In this document: positions 1-14,778 of the stretch, piece by piece
How positions within the stretch are numbered: position 1 is the first letter of the stretch
Layout of the letters: the number at the start of each line of letters is the position of its first letter
Origin: a virus
Lineage: Duplodnaviria; Caudoviricetes
Strand: one strand, 5' to 3'
IMG/VR virus record: IMGVR_UViG_3300037484_000573
Location: 1 to 48,769 of that record
DNA: 48,769 nt
Position numbers and translations under genes: made by a program
Notes under the pieces: model-generated
Seen by the model: the letters and a program-made list of their open reading frames with translations, nothing else
Told to the model about the DNA's origin: nothing
Database searches by the model: none

Positions 1-78
1 CATGATCATGGGGTTGCCAGTGTTGCAACCCTCACCTTGTACTGCTGGATAGAGATTATTTACCGGATAATTAACCAT
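1..78 (-). CDS. queE: 7-carboxy-7-deazaguanine synthase QueE, 5' fragment (runs off the window edge)
   Basis: Not in the ORF track. Manual translation from ATG at 78 gives MVNYPVNNLYPAVQGEGCNTGNPMIM, matching the QueE N-terminal 'QGEGxxxGxP' motif. Overlaps the stop of the DpdA-like gene. Confidence 0.8.
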   Translation of the reverse strand, partial: MVNYPVNNLYPAVQGEGCNTGNPMIM

Positions 79-889
79 TTCGCCTCGCATTCCAATATTC
101 TACCAAGTCAATAAGTGATTTTGCGTCATAACGCAACGATACGCGCTCGTATTGCTTTGTCCTACCTTTTTTCAAGTCCCAACCCTCACAAATATCATCC
201 CCAATTAGATGCCAATTAGCTTCTAAGTCAGATTGATCTGAGACAGTTATCCACTTTGTTTCCCCCTCACTATGATACATAATCCGACCAAAACGAGATG
301 CCGCAGTCATCCAGGTTGTACCATCAATTGAATTGAGGGGGTAGTCACGAATGATAGAGGGAGTTGTCAGCCCCAAGCCGTGAGTTTTGATAGTCGGGTT
401 ATACTTCTGGATTAGCTCAAAGCATTGGTCAAGAAAAATGCGTACTCGTTCTTTTTCGCCCTGTTTACCCTTTACAGCCAGAGCAATATAATCATCGCCA
501 CTTTCAAGCATCTGAATTAGGTATTTCCAATCGCTATCAAGATGAAACGTGCAAAGAGATTTGATGCCCTCTTTACGCATATAGGAGTGATTTTGCCATG
601 TGGCATCCGCATCCCCAATAACGTCAAGTGACATAATCACTTCAAACTGTCTACCGTAAATATCACAGTAAAGGGTGTAGGTACTCAGGTCTATCCTGGC
701 TCCTACCGTCATGGCTGAAAATGCACCACTATCAAGAAATAGGGGGATGCCCTTTTGAGTGGCATATTTAATCGCCTTATTGTCAGGGCCATTGCCAGAT
801 ATGTAATGATAGGAAACAAGGAAAGCGAGGTGAGGTAAGTCCTCAAGATATTTGTAATTTGAGCCAACCCCGGCAAGGTATACTTTCAT
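71..889 (-). CDS. dpdA: DpdA/TGT-like deazaguanine DNA transglycosylase
   Basis: TGT-fold motifs LFLDSGAFS, SLDVIGD, HGLGLT, YPLNSIDGTTW; adjacent to queE. Confidence 0.75.
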   Translation of the reverse strand: MKVYLAGVGSNYKYLEDLPHLAFLVSYHYISGNGPDNKAIKYATQKGIPLFLDSGAFSAMTVGARIDLSTYTLYCDIYGRQFEVIMSLDVIGDADATWQNHSYMRKEGIKSLCTFHLDSDWKYLIQMLESGDDYIALAVKGKQGEKERVRIFLDQCFELIQKYNPTIKTHGLGLTTPSIIRDYPLNSIDGTTWMTAASRFGRIMYHSEGETKWITVSDQSDLEANWHLIGDDICEGWDLKKGRTKQYERVSLRYDAKSLIDLVEYWNARRNG

Positions 890-3774
890 ACTTTCAATGC
901 CTCCAAATCGAACAGAGTTAATTGCTTACTCTCAGCGAGTGCTTTTTCGGCGTTGGAATTTGAAAGTACAAAATATTCAGGCTTAAGCTCCATTGCCACT
1001 ACCTTGCGCCCTGTTCTAATAGCCCGGTCTAAGCAAGTACCAGAGCCACTAAATGGAGTGAATACCAACTCACCGGGTAGGGTATACATCTCAATCGGGC
1101 GCTGAATAACGACAAGGGGCAAGGGGCAAAGATGCTTATCGGCATCCTCGGTATCATGGAAATTCTTACTCCTGTCCAGGCCCAAAGTCTCTCCCTCTTG
1201 AACATCAAACCAAATACCCAGCGCAGTTTGTACCATGTTAAGCCAGCGTTCTTCACGGGGCATCTTAGCCAACTTGCCAAAGTCACTATCGAAGCCCTTG
1301 TCAGGCCATGCACCTTCAGCGTATAGAATCCACTTGTCACCATACATTTCTGAGTAAATCTCAACTTCTAATCCCTCGCATTTCGGGCATTGGTCAAGTG
1401 ACATAGCGTTAATTTCACCTGATTTATAATTGCGAGTTGTCTTGCTGTCATACCCGATTAAGCTACTGGCGTATCCCTGCCAACCGCATGATTTGCAAGT
1501 TGCCAAATCCGCCACTGCCCTGTCACTTTCGCCAGGCTTTTTGAACAAAAGCATTGTACCATTCATAGCTGGGGCAATACGTAAACGGTCTTTCTCCATA
1601 TTACCCATTGCCAAATTTGAGACATGCTTGACAATACTCTGCATCTGCTGATTTTTGATAATCGGGATTTTGCCAACTAATACCCAGCCCGCTTTGGCTG
1701 CTGCGCGAGTTACTTCGCCAGTAACGTCAAACAAACCGACATTGCCATCTAATCCCTTGCGTAATGGCACATCCTCCAAGTGCATTGCCATAATTCTACC
1801 GGGCTTGGTGACTGTTTTCATCCCCTCAAGAAAGAACTGAAACTGCAACATGAAGTCATCCATGCCCCCTACCGCTCCGGCCCCCCTGGTATTGCCCATA
1901 TCAGCCGGGTCACGGCTATAGGTGAAAACGTCACCTGGGAACGGGGGGCTAAATACTGACAAGTCAACCTTGTCAATTAGGCTATCATACATACCCCAGA
2001 GCGTCTCATAGCTCATATTCTCTTGACGCGCTAACTCCCGTGCCTTAGCTGGCTTATCCGTTGCCAGATAAATCTCCCGTATCATCAGCATTGATTTGAT
2101 ACTATCAGCATGATAAAGCGAGTAGTCACGAGTGATAATAGGTTCATACTTGACTGATTCAAATTCAGACATAGGTGCAAAATCCTCCAATAATAAAAAG
2201 TCTTTTAGTTCGTCTGCCAGAGAGCCGATGTAAAGGCGCTCCTGATAGTCAAAGTCCTGTTGCATGCTCTTTTGTTTCTTGAGCACGTTTTGAATAATCA
2301 CTTCTTCATATGCCGTATAAACGAGGTAAATGAGTACTTGCTCCATTTGACCGTATCTGTGAACACGCTTCACGGCCTGAAAATATTGCTCAAATGAGTC
2401 TTGAAGTCCTGAGAATATTTCGATAAAGCAAAATTGGAAGTTTAGGCCAAAGCCGAGTATACGAGGTTTGCTGATAATTACATCTAGCTCACCATGTCGG
2501 AACTGGTCAATTTGAGACAGGCGCGTTTCAGGCTTAGTTTTGCCGGTAATATGAGCAACCCTATAACCCTCACTGAGGAGTTTACGCTCTAAAATGTCGC
2601 CCTCTTCATCAAATACTGTCCAGACTATAACCTGCTTGCCGGCATGTGAAACAATAATGTCATGGATAGCTTGTGGCTTATTTGAGGTGACATAGCTCGT
2701 TGCCTCATCTCCGTTGTAGACAAACCCCTTGCTAATCTGGCTGAATTTGCTACGCTGACCCATGTCGCTAGGGGGAACTGCTATACCGGGTAAATAAGCC
2801 TGTTTACCCTTTTTGGCCCATTTCTTAATCAGGTCATCTTGCTCAGGCGTCATGTCAACAAGGATGTGTATTTCCTTCCAGGGCTTCAAATCGCGTAGAT
2901 TATTGTCAAACCCATAACTTGCAGGTGAGCGCATGAAGATGCTCCAACTTGCTAGGTACTGATAAAACTTCTCGGTAGCATGCCGGCGCAAAACATACTC
3001 GCCATCTTTGTTGACGAAGTACATTGAATAAAACTCTTTTTCAGAGTTGATGTAGCCCAGCCACCAGCAGATCATGGCATACTCGGTTTTGTCGTTGGGT
3101 GCAGGCGTACCACTTGCAGCAATACGACGTGGCACAAACTTACAGGCGCTAATCAGGTTACGGGCTATCTTGCCATTGCCACCTTGCCCACCCTTAAGTA
3201 TGCTGGCCTCATCAAGTAATACCAGTTCAATGTTGCGAGGTAACTCATCAATCTTGATAAATGCCTCATGGTTGATAAAGGCCACTGATTCATCATCAAG
3301 CAAGGCCCATTCTTTCAAAGTACGCTTGGAGTTATGCAAGTTGACACTGGCCGGAAAGTCATCAAAAAACGTCTGACACATCTCCTGAGATTGGGTGAGG
3401 ATGTTGAGCGCTGTAATATAAAGAATTTTACGCTCTGGATAAGCGGCATGTACCTGCCGAGCTACCTCACCTAATGCGTAAGTTTTGCCCAGGCCAGGGT
3501 CTAAAAAGATGCCATAGCACCCCTTAATAAAACTCACCTTAGCAATTACTTGCTGATAATCAAAAAGCTTTTCGGTAACTGACAAGGGGAGCTTGATACG
3601 CTCCTGATAAAAGCCATCAACGTGATTAGCCGGAAATGTGATGGTATTGTCAATCACCTTGTAAGTAGGCAAACCACGAATAGCGATGTAATCCAGATAA
3701 GAGGCAAGTGAAAAGTCATTAAAGGTTAATTCGGCCTGATTGCCGGTTATGGTTGGAGTGTTAGTTAGTTTCAT
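886..3774 (-). CDS. SNF2-like helicase fused to an N4-C/N6-A DNA methyltransferase
   Basis: Helicase motifs LDPGLGKT, LLDEAS, SGTP, GFGLNFQ, QAVKRVHRYGQ. C-terminal FSPPF precedes FTPFSGSGT (beta-class order), with a CKSC..CPKC insert. Confidence 0.85.
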   Translation of the reverse strand: MKLTNTPTITGNQAELTFNDFSLASYLDYIAIRGLPTYKVIDNTITFPANHVDGFYQERIKLPLSVTEKLFDYQQVIAKVSFIKGCYGIFLDPGLGKTYALGEVARQVHAAYPERKILYITALNILTQSQEMCQTFFDDFPASVNLHNSKRTLKEWALLDDESVAFINHEAFIKIDELPRNIELVLLDEASILKGGQGGNGKIARNLISACKFVPRRIAASGTPAPNDKTEYAMICWWLGYINSEKEFYSMYFVNKDGEYVLRRHATEKFYQYLASWSIFMRSPASYGFDNNLRDLKPWKEIHILVDMTPEQDDLIKKWAKKGKQAYLPGIAVPPSDMGQRSKFSQISKGFVYNGDEATSYVTSNKPQAIHDIIVSHAGKQVIVWTVFDEEGDILERKLLSEGYRVAHITGKTKPETRLSQIDQFRHGELDVIISKPRILGFGLNFQFCFIEIFSGLQDSFEQYFQAVKRVHRYGQMEQVLIYLVYTAYEEVIIQNVLKKQKSMQQDFDYQERLYIGSLADELKDFLLLEDFAPMSEFESVKYEPIITRDYSLYHADSIKSMLMIREIYLATDKPAKARELARQENMSYETLWGMYDSLIDKVDLSVFSPPFPGDVFTYSRDPADMGNTRGAGAVGGMDDFMLQFQFFLEGMKTVTKPGRIMAMHLEDVPLRKGLDGNVGLFDVTGEVTRAAAKAGWVLVGKIPIIKNQQMQSIVKHVSNLAMGNMEKDRLRIAPAMNGTMLLFKKPGESDRAVADLATCKSCGWQGYASSLIGYDSKTTRNYKSGEINAMSLDQCPKCEGLEVEIYSEMYGDKWILYAEGAWPDKGFDSDFGKLAKMPREERWLNMVQTALGIWFDVQEGETLGLDRSKNFHDTEDADKHLCPLPLVVIQRPIEMYTLPGELVFTPFSGSGTCLDRAIRTGRKVVAMELKPEYFVLSNSNAEKALAESKQLTLFDLEALKV

Positions 3775-12264: not shown

Positions 12265-12590
12265 GGACAGCAGGGACGCATGGGACAGATAAAAATGTCG
12301 CAATATACTATATATAAAAAATGGCTATTTTCACTGAAACTGTTAAGTAAAATAGCGTTACTCTTAGAATGTTTCTAGTATAGTGTCCCATGTGTCCCAT
12401 GTGTCCCCATTTATATATTTATATGACTAAACTTATAAAATCATATCTCTCAAAATGTGTCCTTTTAGGGACAGCAGGGACAGATAACATGCAATTTTCG
12501 TATAACGGTAAAATGCCTTGAATAGTGAAAATAGGCACAATCAAAAAGCTATCTGTCCCATGTGTCCCTAAAATATACAAAATGCGTCCT
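12264..12590. repeat. putative replication origin: convergent GGGACA/TGTCCC iterons
   Basis: GGGAC(A) at 12273, 12282, 12468, 12477; TGTCCC at 12384, 12393, 12402, 12554, 12563; 9-bp period with AT-rich spacers; immediately after the helicase. Confidence 0.7.
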
Positions 12591-12605
12591 GTTTTGAGGT
12601 GAAAA

Positions 12606-12953
12606 ATGGATAACCACACCCCCGAATACCTGGCATATCTCAACTCATTTACCTGGCATCTTAAGCGCTGGTTAAGGTTGAATTACGCCGGCCATAAGTG
12701 CGAGAATTGCGGCAGTCGTGAGAAGCTCCAGTGTCACCACAGGACATACGAGCGCCTATTCCACGAACGCATATCCGATCTACAAATCTTGTGCGAGGAT
12801 TGTCATCTCCTGGCAGATGCCCAGCGTCGGTATGACAAGGCGGTTAATACGTTCGCCACTAAAAAGTGGGGGGCAGCGTGGGTACAGGTGATGAGGCCAG
12901 ATGAGGCAAAGGCGGAGTTTGATAGATGGCTAGAATCAAAGCAAAGTAGGTAA
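12606..12953 (+). CDS. HNH endonuclease
   Basis: KCENCG...LQCHHRTY...LQILCEDCH. Confidence 0.85.
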   Translation: MDNHTPEYLAYLNSFTWHLKRWLRLNYAGHKCENCGSREKLQCHHRTYERLFHERISDLQILCEDCHLLADAQRRYDKAVNTFATKKWGAAWVQVMRPDEAKAEFDRWLESKQSR

Positions 12954-13024: not shown

Positions 13025-13067
13025 AAAAAATAGAGCCTACTCGTTATTGAGTAGGCTCTATTGATTT
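13025..13067 (-). terminator. intrinsic terminator, possibly bidirectional
   Basis: AATAGAGCCTACTC/GAGTAGGCTCTATT stem with a T-run on the minus strand. Confidence 0.75.
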
Positions 13068-13309: not shown

Positions 13310-13500
13310 TTGGGCCTCCTGTGGAGATAATGATAAACGTTATCGGGTAAACCGTCCCGATTGCGGTTTGTCACCTATAGCGGGCTGGGCTACGGTTGAC
13401 GATTGATTTTAGACAATAACACGCACGTATAAAGAAATCCTCACTCTAAGTTTTGCCACAGTTTATCAGCCTGTCACCTCGCTTTCTGTGTTTCCAACAA

Positions 13501-13570
13501 TTGCGGATCACAGATTTGAACTGTGTCGAGAGGCTTATGAGACCCCCCAGTCTACCAAGACTTATCCGCA
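13501..13570 (-). tRNA. tRNA with CAT anticodon (Met/fMet; Ile2 not excluded)
   Basis: Acceptor TGCGGAT/ATCCGCA, D arm GTCT-TGGT-AGAC, anticodon GGGGT-CTCATAA-GCCTC, T arm CACAG-TTCAAAT-CTGTG; no encoded CCA. Confidence 0.8.
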
Positions 13571-13654
13571 GTATTAGCCCTTACTCCCCGTTGCCACTGT
13601 TCTGCGAAATGAGCCAAGACAGTAAGGGAGCGCACACACTAAGGGCTATTGATA

Positions 13655-13777
13655 AACAGCGGGCCGGATTCGATTCCGGCTTAATCCTTTTGGCGATTTA
13701 GGGTTTACGTGTTCCCTCGCCTTCGTTTAGGTAGCACACGTTCCGATACCTACACTTCCAAACAGTGCTGCCGCTGT
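13655..13777 (-). ncRNA. tRNA-like structured RNA without a canonical anticodon arm
   Basis: ACAGCGG/CCGCTGT closing stem, D-like arm, T-like arm GCCGG-AATCGAAT-CCGGC, and two inner arms with complementary loops. Confidence 0.55.
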
Positions 13778-14324
13778 CTATTCCGTTTTAGTGGGCCGGT
13801 TACACGTACCGGAGTCAGCCTTTCCTCATTTGGACGTGTTATTACCTTTGGCTCGACCGGCCCTATGTCATCCGCTTGCGCGGTTGTGACCTCAATAAAA
13901 GAGTTGCTCCCTGCCCCGCGCCTCACTTTACTGAGCGCAATGCTCTGTAAATCTATTGCACCATCCGGCCTTGTCCCAAATTGGGAAGGGCACTTTATTT
14001 AATGGCCGTCAACTCTTTATGTTGTTAATTTTGCCAGCGTATGCCGCTTAAGCGTACACTTACCCCTCACTGGCTATCTACAGGATGTTGGCATCAACGG
14101 CGCAATCTATTAAGCCAGGGCAATGACCCCCACTATGCTCCTGTAGATAAAACGTTGCGCCGATTACCCCCGGCGTTGGGGTTTGCCTCACTAAACCGTT
14201 TAGCTCATATAGAGCCTTGCATCTGCCCGTGCGTGATTAGCACGTAGCAAGTTATCACGGTAAAGAAGGCGGCTCAATCGGTTGTCAAGCCGGTAAATCT
14301 ATGACTACTTTTGAGCCTAATGCC

Positions 14325-14353
14325 ACTATAACCGATATTTGGGAATTTGTCTA
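14325..14353 (-). promoter_or_regulatory. promoter for the non-coding RNA cluster
   Basis: TAGACA-17-TATAGT pointing into the tRNA region. Confidence 0.6.
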
Positions 14354-14472: not shown

Positions 14473-14778
14473 ATGTTTAAGAATTTTGTAGAAAATAAAA
14501 AACCAAAAGAAGGCGACTTGCAGGTTTGGCATATACCCCAAGTACCAGGTGCTCCATTTGAGGTTGCCGTATCTACTCCCCAAGAGGGTAAGCGAGTTAT
14601 GGCTATCCTGGCCGCCTATGATCTCTTTCAATTCCACTACAATATCAAGCCTGATTACTCTAACGCGCAGGGGTTGAATGTTTTTGAAGATGGCGAATGG
14701 CTAACGTGGTATGATGTAGATGGCAACGATATTGATGAATTAGAGATTAACGAAATGGGCGAATTGGTCTATGGCTAA
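14473..14778 (+). CDS. P22 gp17-like protein (superinfection-exclusion related family)
   Basis: VWHIPQVP..PFEVAV...LAAYDLFQ...IKPDYSNAQGL, recalled as this family's signature. Confidence 0.7.
   Translation: MFKNFVENKKPKEGDLQVWHIPQVPGAPFEVAVSTPQEGKRVMAILAAYDLFQFHYNIKPDYSNAQGLNVFEDGEWLTWYDVDGNDIDELEINEMGELVYG

What the first reader, a model, noticed from the sequence alone, without database searches (positions are those of the whole stretch)
13655..13777. tRNA mimic with kissing loops in place of the anticodon arm
Seen on the minus strand: a 7-bp acceptor-like stem (ACAGCGG/CCGCTGT), a D-like arm with GG in the loop (GCACT-GTTTGGA-AGTGT), and a T-like arm (GCCGG-AATCGAAT-CCGGC) stacked directly on the acceptor. 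Between them are two arms (TAGGTA/TACCTA and GGCGA/TCGCC) whose loops carry the complementary ACGTGT and ACACGT. It lies about 85 nt from a real tRNA. Inference: a non-decoding tRNA-shaped RNA, such as a decoy for anticodon nucleases or tRNA-sensing proteins, or an RNase P/Z processing element.
Basis: partly seen in the sequence, partly recalled or inferred. Interest (0 to 1): 0.75.

Follow-up and report, generated by a model that had tools for sequence, protein, structure and literature searches.

The report
Self-locked tRNA mimic in a phage
A phage carries a conserved gene for a tRNA-shaped RNA with no codon-reading loop: two hairpins with matching tips stand in its place and are predicted to lock together, so it is likely a non-decoding tRNA decoy of the same unexplained kind as the stable RNAs of phages T4 and T5.

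Summary
The element is real. It lies on the minus strand of a phage contig, inside a ~1.3-kb non-coding stretch with a promoter-like site, a terminator-like site and a CAU tRNA.

One distinct homologue was retrieved, at 89% identity, in a phage that shares few proteins. It keeps all 38 proposed pairs, with two compensatory changes in the D stem and a third at the base of the extra arm. Both loop hexamers are unchanged, so the kiss is conserved but not shown by covariation.

The acceptor helix, T arm and D-loop GG remain. The anticodon loop, the U8-A14 and G15-C48 core contacts and an encoded CCA are missing. Rfam and ARAGORN give no match.

The closest known RNAs are T5 RNA1/RNA2 (same frame, no kiss found) and T4 RNA C (complementary loops invariant in 5 of 5 aligned phages, but on other arms). 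All are of unknown function.

Best reading: a processed, non-decoding tRNA decoy. That function is inferred and expression is untested. The scan noted this design earlier on other DNA (AI notes). Verdict: new variant of a known, unexplained kind.

The parts
14325..14353 (-). Sigma-70-like promoter (10 of 12 matches, 17-nt spacer) that would drive the non-coding unit
   Evidence: consensus match only; a similar site lies upstream of the unit in the homologue L128 (read by eye)
14155..14261 (-). Separate conserved RNA module: three-way junction followed by a candidate H-type pseudoknot (14182-14158)
   Evidence: 97% identical over 107 nt in G001; fold; pseudoknot read by eye
14020..14075 (-). 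Separate conserved hairpin module
   Evidence: 95% identical in G001; also in contigs of run X1
13793..13891 (-). Upstream module: GCAA-tetraloop hairpin (13891-13867), then a domain closed by 13863-13856 with 13800-13793. Its interior differs in G001; in the window it holds a second copy of both hexamers, paired as an ordinary stem
13652..13781 (-). The tRNA-shaped RNA with its 11-bp closing helix (7-bp acceptor plus 4-bp extension); no encoded CCA
   Evidence: conserved block 13646-13784 at 89% identity in G001
13752..13768 (-). D-like arm, 5 bp, 7-nt loop with GG
   Evidence: Two pairs changed on both sides in the homologue, A-U to G-C and C-G to A-U
13729..13751 (-). Arm 2 at the anticodon position, 4-5 bp, 13-nt loop with the hexamer at 13741-13736; no U33-type 7-nt loop
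   Evidence: Identical in both sequences
13692..13721 (-). Arm 3 at the variable-arm position, 5 bp + bulge + 3 bp, 10-nt loop with the complementary hexamer at 13712-13707
   Evidence: Basal pair G-C in the window, C-G in the homologue; loop identical
13663..13680 (-). T-like arm abutting the acceptor: 5 bp with an 8-nt loop or 6 bp with a 6-nt loop; keeps U55-C56-G57-A58 but has A at position 54
   Evidence: Identical in both sequences; pair probabilities 0.89-1.0
13501..13570 (-). tRNA with CAU anticodon (ARAGORN: Met; Ile2 not excluded), no encoded CCA; absent from G001
13367..13497 (-). Separate conserved module downstream of the tRNA
   Evidence: 79% identical, with gaps, in G001; also in run X1 contigs
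13029..13062 (-). Intrinsic-terminator-like hairpin closing the unit
   Evidence: 93% identical in G001

Best explanation
This is a conserved phage gene for a tRNA-shaped RNA without an anticodon loop, likely cut out of a longer non-coding transcript by the host's tRNA-processing enzymes and likely acting as a cleavage-resistant tRNA decoy. Shown here: the secondary structure, its strand, its conservation as a discrete module and the lack of a decoding loop. Predicted: arms 2 and 3 pair tip to tip over 6 bp and close the end where an anticodon would be. Inferred: the D-loop GG and T-loop UCGA form a tRNA elbow; RNase P cuts about 12 bp from the T loop, inside the 11-bp helix; the 3' end is trimmed and may receive CCA. 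Inferred, weakest step: the mature RNA occupies host proteins that read the elbow and acceptor arm, most plausibly tRNA-attacking or tRNA-sensing anti-phage proteins, while offering no anticodon loop to cut.
For: All 38 proposed pairs hold in both sequences; 2 changed on both sides and 2 on one side, and a third two-sided change sits at the base of arm 3 beside a 1-nt indel. Placing 14 random substitutions on the element broke no pair in 0.02% of 200,000 trials, and did so with two or more compensatory changes in 0.0015%; the helices were proposed before the homologue was seen. The element is 89% identical while third codon positions of the neighbouring HNH gene are 55% identical over 113 codons and the spacers between modules give no BLAST match. 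It behaves as a free-standing unit: G001 has a 167-aa HNH gene ending directly at its 5' flank and lacks the tRNA on its 3' side, as homing-nuclease genes sit among tRNAs in T4 and T5. T4 RNA C, a stable RNA validated by Northern blot (PMC9697503, passages), has two complementary loop hexamers invariant in 5 of 5 aligned phages. RNase P, RNase Z and many proteins read the elbow, and viral tRNA mimics copy it (PMC4810234, passages).
Against: Only two distinct sequences were seen; the X1 contig with the full element shows the same listed changes as G001, so it is not independent. The hexamers never vary, so the kiss has no covariation support. In the window's sequence the energy model favours another hairpin by 3.3 kcal/mol that would bury one hexamer (the kiss itself is not scored). 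C8, U14 and A48 replace the canonical core bases and the T loop is non-standard, so elbow formation and RNase P cleavage are not assured. The conserved helix extension and flanks fit a role inside a longer RNA as well. No target protein is identified, and the host is unknown. High identity could partly reflect recent exchange of the module.
Confidence: 0.4

Rival explanations
1. The tRNA shape is a processing signal: it draws RNase P and RNase Z to cut the polycistronic non-coding transcript and free the neighbouring RNA modules, and the released piece has no further job.
For: It sits between other conserved modules. G001 has no ARAGORN tRNA at default settings, so this would be the only tRNA-like cut site in its unit. 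The T arm, 3' acceptor strand and trailer form the longest invariant run, and a third phage contig shares only the 19 nt at 13647-13665 with the element. Long non-coding RNAs use tRNA mimicry this way (PMC4810234, passage).
Against: Arm 2 with its loop and most of arm 3 are invariant, although RNase P and RNase Z read the elbow and acceptor side. The complementary loops would be unexplained.
Confidence: 0.22
2. It is one domain of a single large structured RNA spanning the unit, in the manner of GOLLD or ROOL, with the complementary loops used between molecules to build an oligomer.
For: Modules keep the same order in the window, G001 and a third contig. The closing helix runs on to 11 bp with conserved flanks and no CCA. 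GOLLD and ROOL lie near phage tRNAs and use kissing loops between chains (PMC12286853, passages). The window has a second copy of both hexamers just upstream.
Against: No Rfam match to either family. A protein gene on the 5' side and a tRNA on the 3' side come and go right at the element's edges, and the spacer to the next block is 245 nt in the window against 896 nt in the relative. The second hexamer pair is absent from G001 and folds as an ordinary stem.
Confidence: 0.15
3. It is a charged or chargeable tRNA mimic used on the ribosome or as a carrier for a phage or host enzyme, rather than a sink.
For: Acceptor and T arms are intact and abut; the phage's real tRNA also lacks an encoded CCA, so CCA addition by the host is plausible.
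Against: No tmRNA call, no G3-U70 pair, no tag frame; the two extra arms are too bulky for a normal decoding site (inference); no partner gene was recognised among the proteins scanned.
Confidence: 0.13
4. It is a decaying tRNA gene or a chance fold with no function.
For: Only one distinct homologue was found; the window's lowest-energy fold is not the cloverleaf.
Against: Compensatory changes with no broken pair, identity far above the neighbouring gene's third positions, and retention in a phage with a different replication module.
Confidence: 0.04

Closest known systems
Phage T5 RNA2 and RNA1 (AY543070, 32959-33083 and 30501-30644; annotated 'tRNA-like stable RNA with unknown functions')
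   Same: Acceptor, D arm and T arm kept around an enlarged middle; no decoding loop; set among tRNAs and HNH genes. RNA2 has nearly the same length (125 nt) and acceptor-to-T spacing (96 against 97 nt). It was the top match of my model in 16 kb of T5 DNA, though weak (13.6 bits, rough E 0.0045).
   Different: No useful sequence similarity. In the predicted folds RNA2 has one long branched arm and RNA1 a long arm plus a variable arm, with no 5-bp match between those middle loops. Their T loops are canonical.
Phage T4 RNA C (species 1 RNA, rnaC; AF158101 70908-71046)
   Same: tRNA-like acceptor and T arm, no anticodon loop, no encoded CCA, and two hairpins whose tips carry complementary hexamers, invariant in T4, G4498, EcS1, KM16 and Melville. 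Role unknown (PMC3014915, PMC9697503; passages).
   Different: In RNA C the pairing arms are a long arm at the D position and the arm before the T arm; here a normal D arm is kept and the pair joins the anticodon-position and variable-position arms. Different hexamers, and no significant match by BLAST or by my model.
YrlA bacterial and phage Y RNAs (PMC4201824, passages)
   Same: Non-decoding RNA with D- and T-like arms; one member is cut by RNase P and gains CCA.
   Different: No Rfam match, no GNCGAAN0-1G motif in the element, and no Ro60 (TROVE) family among the proteins scanned.
GOLLD and ROOL RNAs (PMC12286853, passages)
   Same: Phage non-coding RNAs near tRNAs that use kissing loops.
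   Different: Hundreds of nucleotides in one fold; no Rfam match here; this unit is broken up by inserted genes.

Membership tests
Canonical tRNA | 7-bp acceptor stem abutting a 5-bp T stem | tested here: met
Canonical tRNA | 5-bp anticodon stem with a 7-nt loop and U33 | tested here: not met
   13-nt loop on a 4-5-bp stem; no ARAGORN call
Canonical tRNA | Core bases U8, A14, G15-C48, G18-G19, U54-U55-C56-R57-A58 | tested here: not met
   GG and U55-C56-G57-A58 present; C8, U14, A48 and A54 deviate (read; numbering is mine)
Intron-containing tRNA | Removing one internal stretch restores a normal anticodon arm | tested here: not met
   ARAGORN with introns at a lowered threshold made 38 calls in the window, none for this element on the minus strand
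tmRNA | G3-U70 acceptor, tag reading frame, pseudoknots inside the RNA | tested here: not met
   A3-U70; no tmRNA call; no Rfam match. The features are recalled.
YrlA / Y RNA | GNCGAAN0-1G motif and a Ro60 gene nearby | tested here: not met
   Motif absent by inspection. No TROVE among 40 window proteins or among 53 of 61 G001 ORFs of 110 aa or more; both records may be incomplete.
GOLLD / ROOL | Match to the Rfam covariance model | tested here: not met
T4 RNA C | Sequence homology and arm order (long D-position arm, one further arm, T arm) | tested here: not met
T4 RNA C | Two hairpin tips with conserved complementary hexamers (my own observation on RNA C, not a published definition) | tested here: met
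T5 RNA1/RNA2-type tRNA-like stable RNA | Acceptor, D and T arms with an enlarged non-decoding middle | tested here: met
T5 RNA1/RNA2-type tRNA-like stable RNA | Common descent (sequence homology) | tested here: inconclusive
   Weak model score of 13.6 bits, carried by the shared frame; no significant BLAST match
T4/T5 stable RNAs | Accumulates as a discrete processed RNA in infected cells | not testable with these tools
   Needs RNA from infected cells

The most novel reading that the evidence does not exclude
Kiss-locked tRNA mimics are a recurrent, convergent class of phage counter-defence RNAs. They keep the elbow and acceptor as bait and seal the anticodon end with a loop-loop helix, so that tRNA-cutting or tRNA-sensing immune proteins are bound and neutralised. 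This one sits in a modular non-coding island whose sister copy also carries a lone CRISPR-repeat-like sequence, which would make the island an all-RNA anti-defence cassette and give T4 RNA C a function.
Probability: 0.22. Interest if true: 0.82.

Novelty: new variant of a known kind. Interest (0 to 1): 0.5.

Why it matters
T4 RNA C/D and T5 RNA1/2 are annotated as stable RNAs of unknown role. An unrelated phage with the same logic (tRNA top half kept, decoding end replaced by two complementary loops) turns that into a testable structural claim: break the hexamer pair, restore it by a swap, and measure folding, processing and phage fitness. The same test can be run on T4 RNA C in laboratory E. 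coli. If the decoy reading holds, it adds an RNA-only route of phage counter-defence against tRNA-targeting immunity.

Tried and rejected
Homologue searches that gave nothing new:
- Annotated phages, distant blastn: 1 record, a 46-nt match outside the element.
- Loose hexamer pattern in viral contigs: 121 loci from 10 of 64 parts of the collection, none real.
- Metagenome pattern: 4 matches, all chance T-arm strings.
- Acceptor-pair pattern: 34 loci, 1 real, the G001 contig again.
- Two patterns from other modules: 0 loci, and 1 locus that was again G001.
- Prokaryote genomes: 1 match of 22 nt with no model hit.
- Relatives by protein: L001, L127, L163 and L166 lack the element; 1 of 4 whole records searched had the unit.

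Sequencing runs: 1 DNA run listed, no RNA holder listed; this says nothing about expression. The middle of a third phage's element (X1, 1992-nt contig) was under 80% alike and could not be read.

Slips: pair counts and model R1 used misregistered structure strings and were discarded; searches are the correct ones. With two sequences the shuffle control is uninformative (136 of 500). The descriptor test (0 of 1500 shuffles) was built from the element and is partly circular. fHe-Yen9-01 (L179) was left out of the RNA C alignment because no T loop was found in it, so 5 of 6 loci were aligned.

Ideas dropped:
- Coding role: the overlapping ORFs are on the plus strand and the flanks are not conserved.
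- Second kissing pair upstream: an ordinary stem, absent from G001.
- CRISPR-DR35 match: plus strand, 15.7 bits against a cut-off of 35.
- attP role: no integrase among the proteins scanned.
- Host assignment from the tape measure protein: uninformative.

Nine paper searches found no description of this RNA or of a loop-loop pair in T4 RNA C. The library lacks most subscription and older papers, and no supplements were read.

Full report
Setting. The window is a whole 48,769-base virus record. It is a tailed phage with primase, helicase, tape measure, tail and sugar-modifying genes. No capsid or portal family was recognised, so it is probably partial. The host is unknown. Between an HNH gene ending at 12953 and the next plausible gene at 14473 there is no minus-strand ORF of 60 aa or more except a 74-aa frame at the promoter end. 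A promoter-like site at 14353-14325 and a terminator-like hairpin at 13062-13029, both on the minus strand, bracket about 1.3 kb that holds a CAU tRNA at 13570-13501 and the element.

Observation. Folding beats shuffles (z -2.9; z -4.0 with the extended helix). A perfect 6-bp match between the two loops arose in 0.4% of loop shuffles and 1.0% of random segment pairs. The closing helix is 11 bp with no CCA behind it. For the window's sequence the energy model prefers, by 3.3 kcal/mol, a hairpin that fuses the D arm and arm 2; that model does not score the kiss, whose isolated duplex is about -8 kcal/mol. Rfam gives nothing credible, and ARAGORN does not parse the element even with introns allowed.

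Homologues. Run X1 showed a contig holding 13646-13784 with 14 differences and one insertion, with the flanks replaced. A conserved 19-mer then found IMG/VR contig G001, 89% identical over 140 nt. The changes listed for X1 are the same as in G001, so these count as one sequence. A third contig in X1 shares the neighbouring modules and 19 nt at the element's 3' end, but its middle could not be read. G001 shares few proteins with the window (11 tblastn matches, two of them from reverse-strand frames) and has a DnaB helicase where the window has a D5-type primase. Yet it keeps the RNA modules in order: 14155-14261 at 97%, 14020-14075 at 95%, the element, 13367-13497 and the terminator. Third codon positions of the shared HNH gene are 55% identical.

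Structure. All 38 proposed pairs hold in both sequences. Two D-stem pairs change on both sides and two acceptor-helix pairs move between A-U and G-U, which also fixes the minus strand. The basal pair of arm 3 is G-C in one and C-G in the other. Random placement of 14 substitutions broke no pair in 0.02% of trials. The homologue's lowest-energy fold is the five-way form, with D-arm pair probabilities of 0.53-0.59 and arm-2 probabilities of 0.32-0.40. The hexamers are unchanged: 0 of 12 positions differ against 9 of 55 other unpaired positions, which fits the kiss but does not prove it. By my numbering the elbow bases G18-G19 and U55-C56-G57-A58 are kept, while U8, A14, C48 and U54 are not.

Autonomy. 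In G001 a 167-aa HNH gene ends directly at the element's 5' flank, and the tRNA on the 3' side is missing. Genes and tRNAs thus come and go at both edges, as homing-nuclease genes do in the T4 and T5 tRNA clusters. This favours a separate RNA cut from a shared precursor over a domain of one large fold, but it is inference; no RNA data were available.

Mechanism. Most likely (0.40) the RNA is released by RNase P and 3' trimming, folds with a tRNA-like acceptor arm and elbow, seals its lower end by the loop-loop helix, and binds host proteins that read tRNA shape without offering an anticodon loop. The elbow is read by RNase P, RNase Z and many proteins, and viral mimics copy it (PMC4810234, passages). 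Rivals are a pure processing signal (0.22), a domain of a GOLLD- or ROOL-like oligomer (0.15; PMC12286853, passages), a chargeable carrier (0.13) and a relic (0.04). No target is identified.

Comparison with known RNAs. Earlier scan notes pointed to T4 RNA C, which I checked. RNA C has an acceptor, a T arm and two hairpins with complementary tip hexamers. These are invariant in 5 of 5 aligned Tevenvirinae sequences, even where the arm has diverged (a sixth locus was left out). There the pair joins a long D-position arm to the arm before the T arm, and there is no sequence match to this element. The T5 record lists RNA1 and RNA2 as tRNA-like stable RNAs of unknown function. RNA2 has the same frame and spacing and was my model's best, weak, match in that region, but its middle loops show no comparable pair. 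The roles of T4 RNA C and D are stated as unknown in two papers read in passages (PMC3014915; PMC9697503). YrlA features are not met (PMC4201824, passages). So the element works like the T4 and T5 tRNA-like RNAs and joins T5's frame with T4's complementary loops, but it is not shown to be a homologue of either.

Novelty and verdict. Nine paper searches found no description of this RNA or of the RNA C loop pair; older and subscription papers and all supplements were unseen. The scan's own notes record similar designs in other phages and what appears to be the sister locus; these are unchecked AI notes and are not counted as support. The feature is real and under selection for structure, a new variant of a known but unexplained kind. 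Interest 0.5.

Noticed in passing
window 14155-14261 (-); L128 3320-3426: The most conserved module of the unit (97% over 107 nt): a three-way junction followed by a compact candidate H-type pseudoknot at 14182-14158. No Rfam match.
   Followed up: partly
L128 about 2786-2818 (-): A lone 33-nt sequence in G001 that looks like a type I-C CRISPR repeat (likeness recalled; Rfam gave no match), just upstream of a hairpin that begins with the same 8 bases and is shared with window 13891-13867. A candidate RNA anti-CRISPR; absent from the window.
   Followed up: partly
window 13793-13863 (-): Domain closed by a helix conserved in G001 (8 bp here, about 14 bp there) with an unrelated interior. In the window it repeats both hexamers of the element as a stem, which could allow strand exchange with the element's loops.
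   Followed up: partly
L128 2139-2642 (-): HNH_3 homing-type endonuclease gene inserted into the non-coding unit, its stop codon abutting the element.
   Followed up: partly
window 13576-13647 (-): Long hairpin between the element and the CAU tRNA, present in the window and replaced in G001 together with the tRNA.
   Followed up: no
window about 12300-12600 (+); L001 7411-7763: Repeated short TGTCCC-containing motifs after the D5-type primase gene, shared with another phage; likely a replication origin.
   Followed up: no
window 71-889 (-): Queuine tRNA-ribosyltransferase-like gene (PHROG 887, E 2e-35) beside a helicase-methylase fusion; may serve DNA base modification (inference).
   Followed up: no
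L176 409-547 (-), phage T4 rnaC: The two hairpin tips of T4 RNA C carry complementary hexamers invariant in five phages; my paper searches found no mention of this.
   Followed up: partly
L183 6960-7084 (-), phage T5 RNA2: The long middle arm ends in a second T-loop-like hairpin that is complementary over 6 nt to the true T loop region.
   Followed up: no
L166 3254-3344 (+): A 91-nt tRNA-Thr with an AGT anticodon and a long extra arm next to an HNH gene in another phage; unusual for threonine.
   Followed up: no
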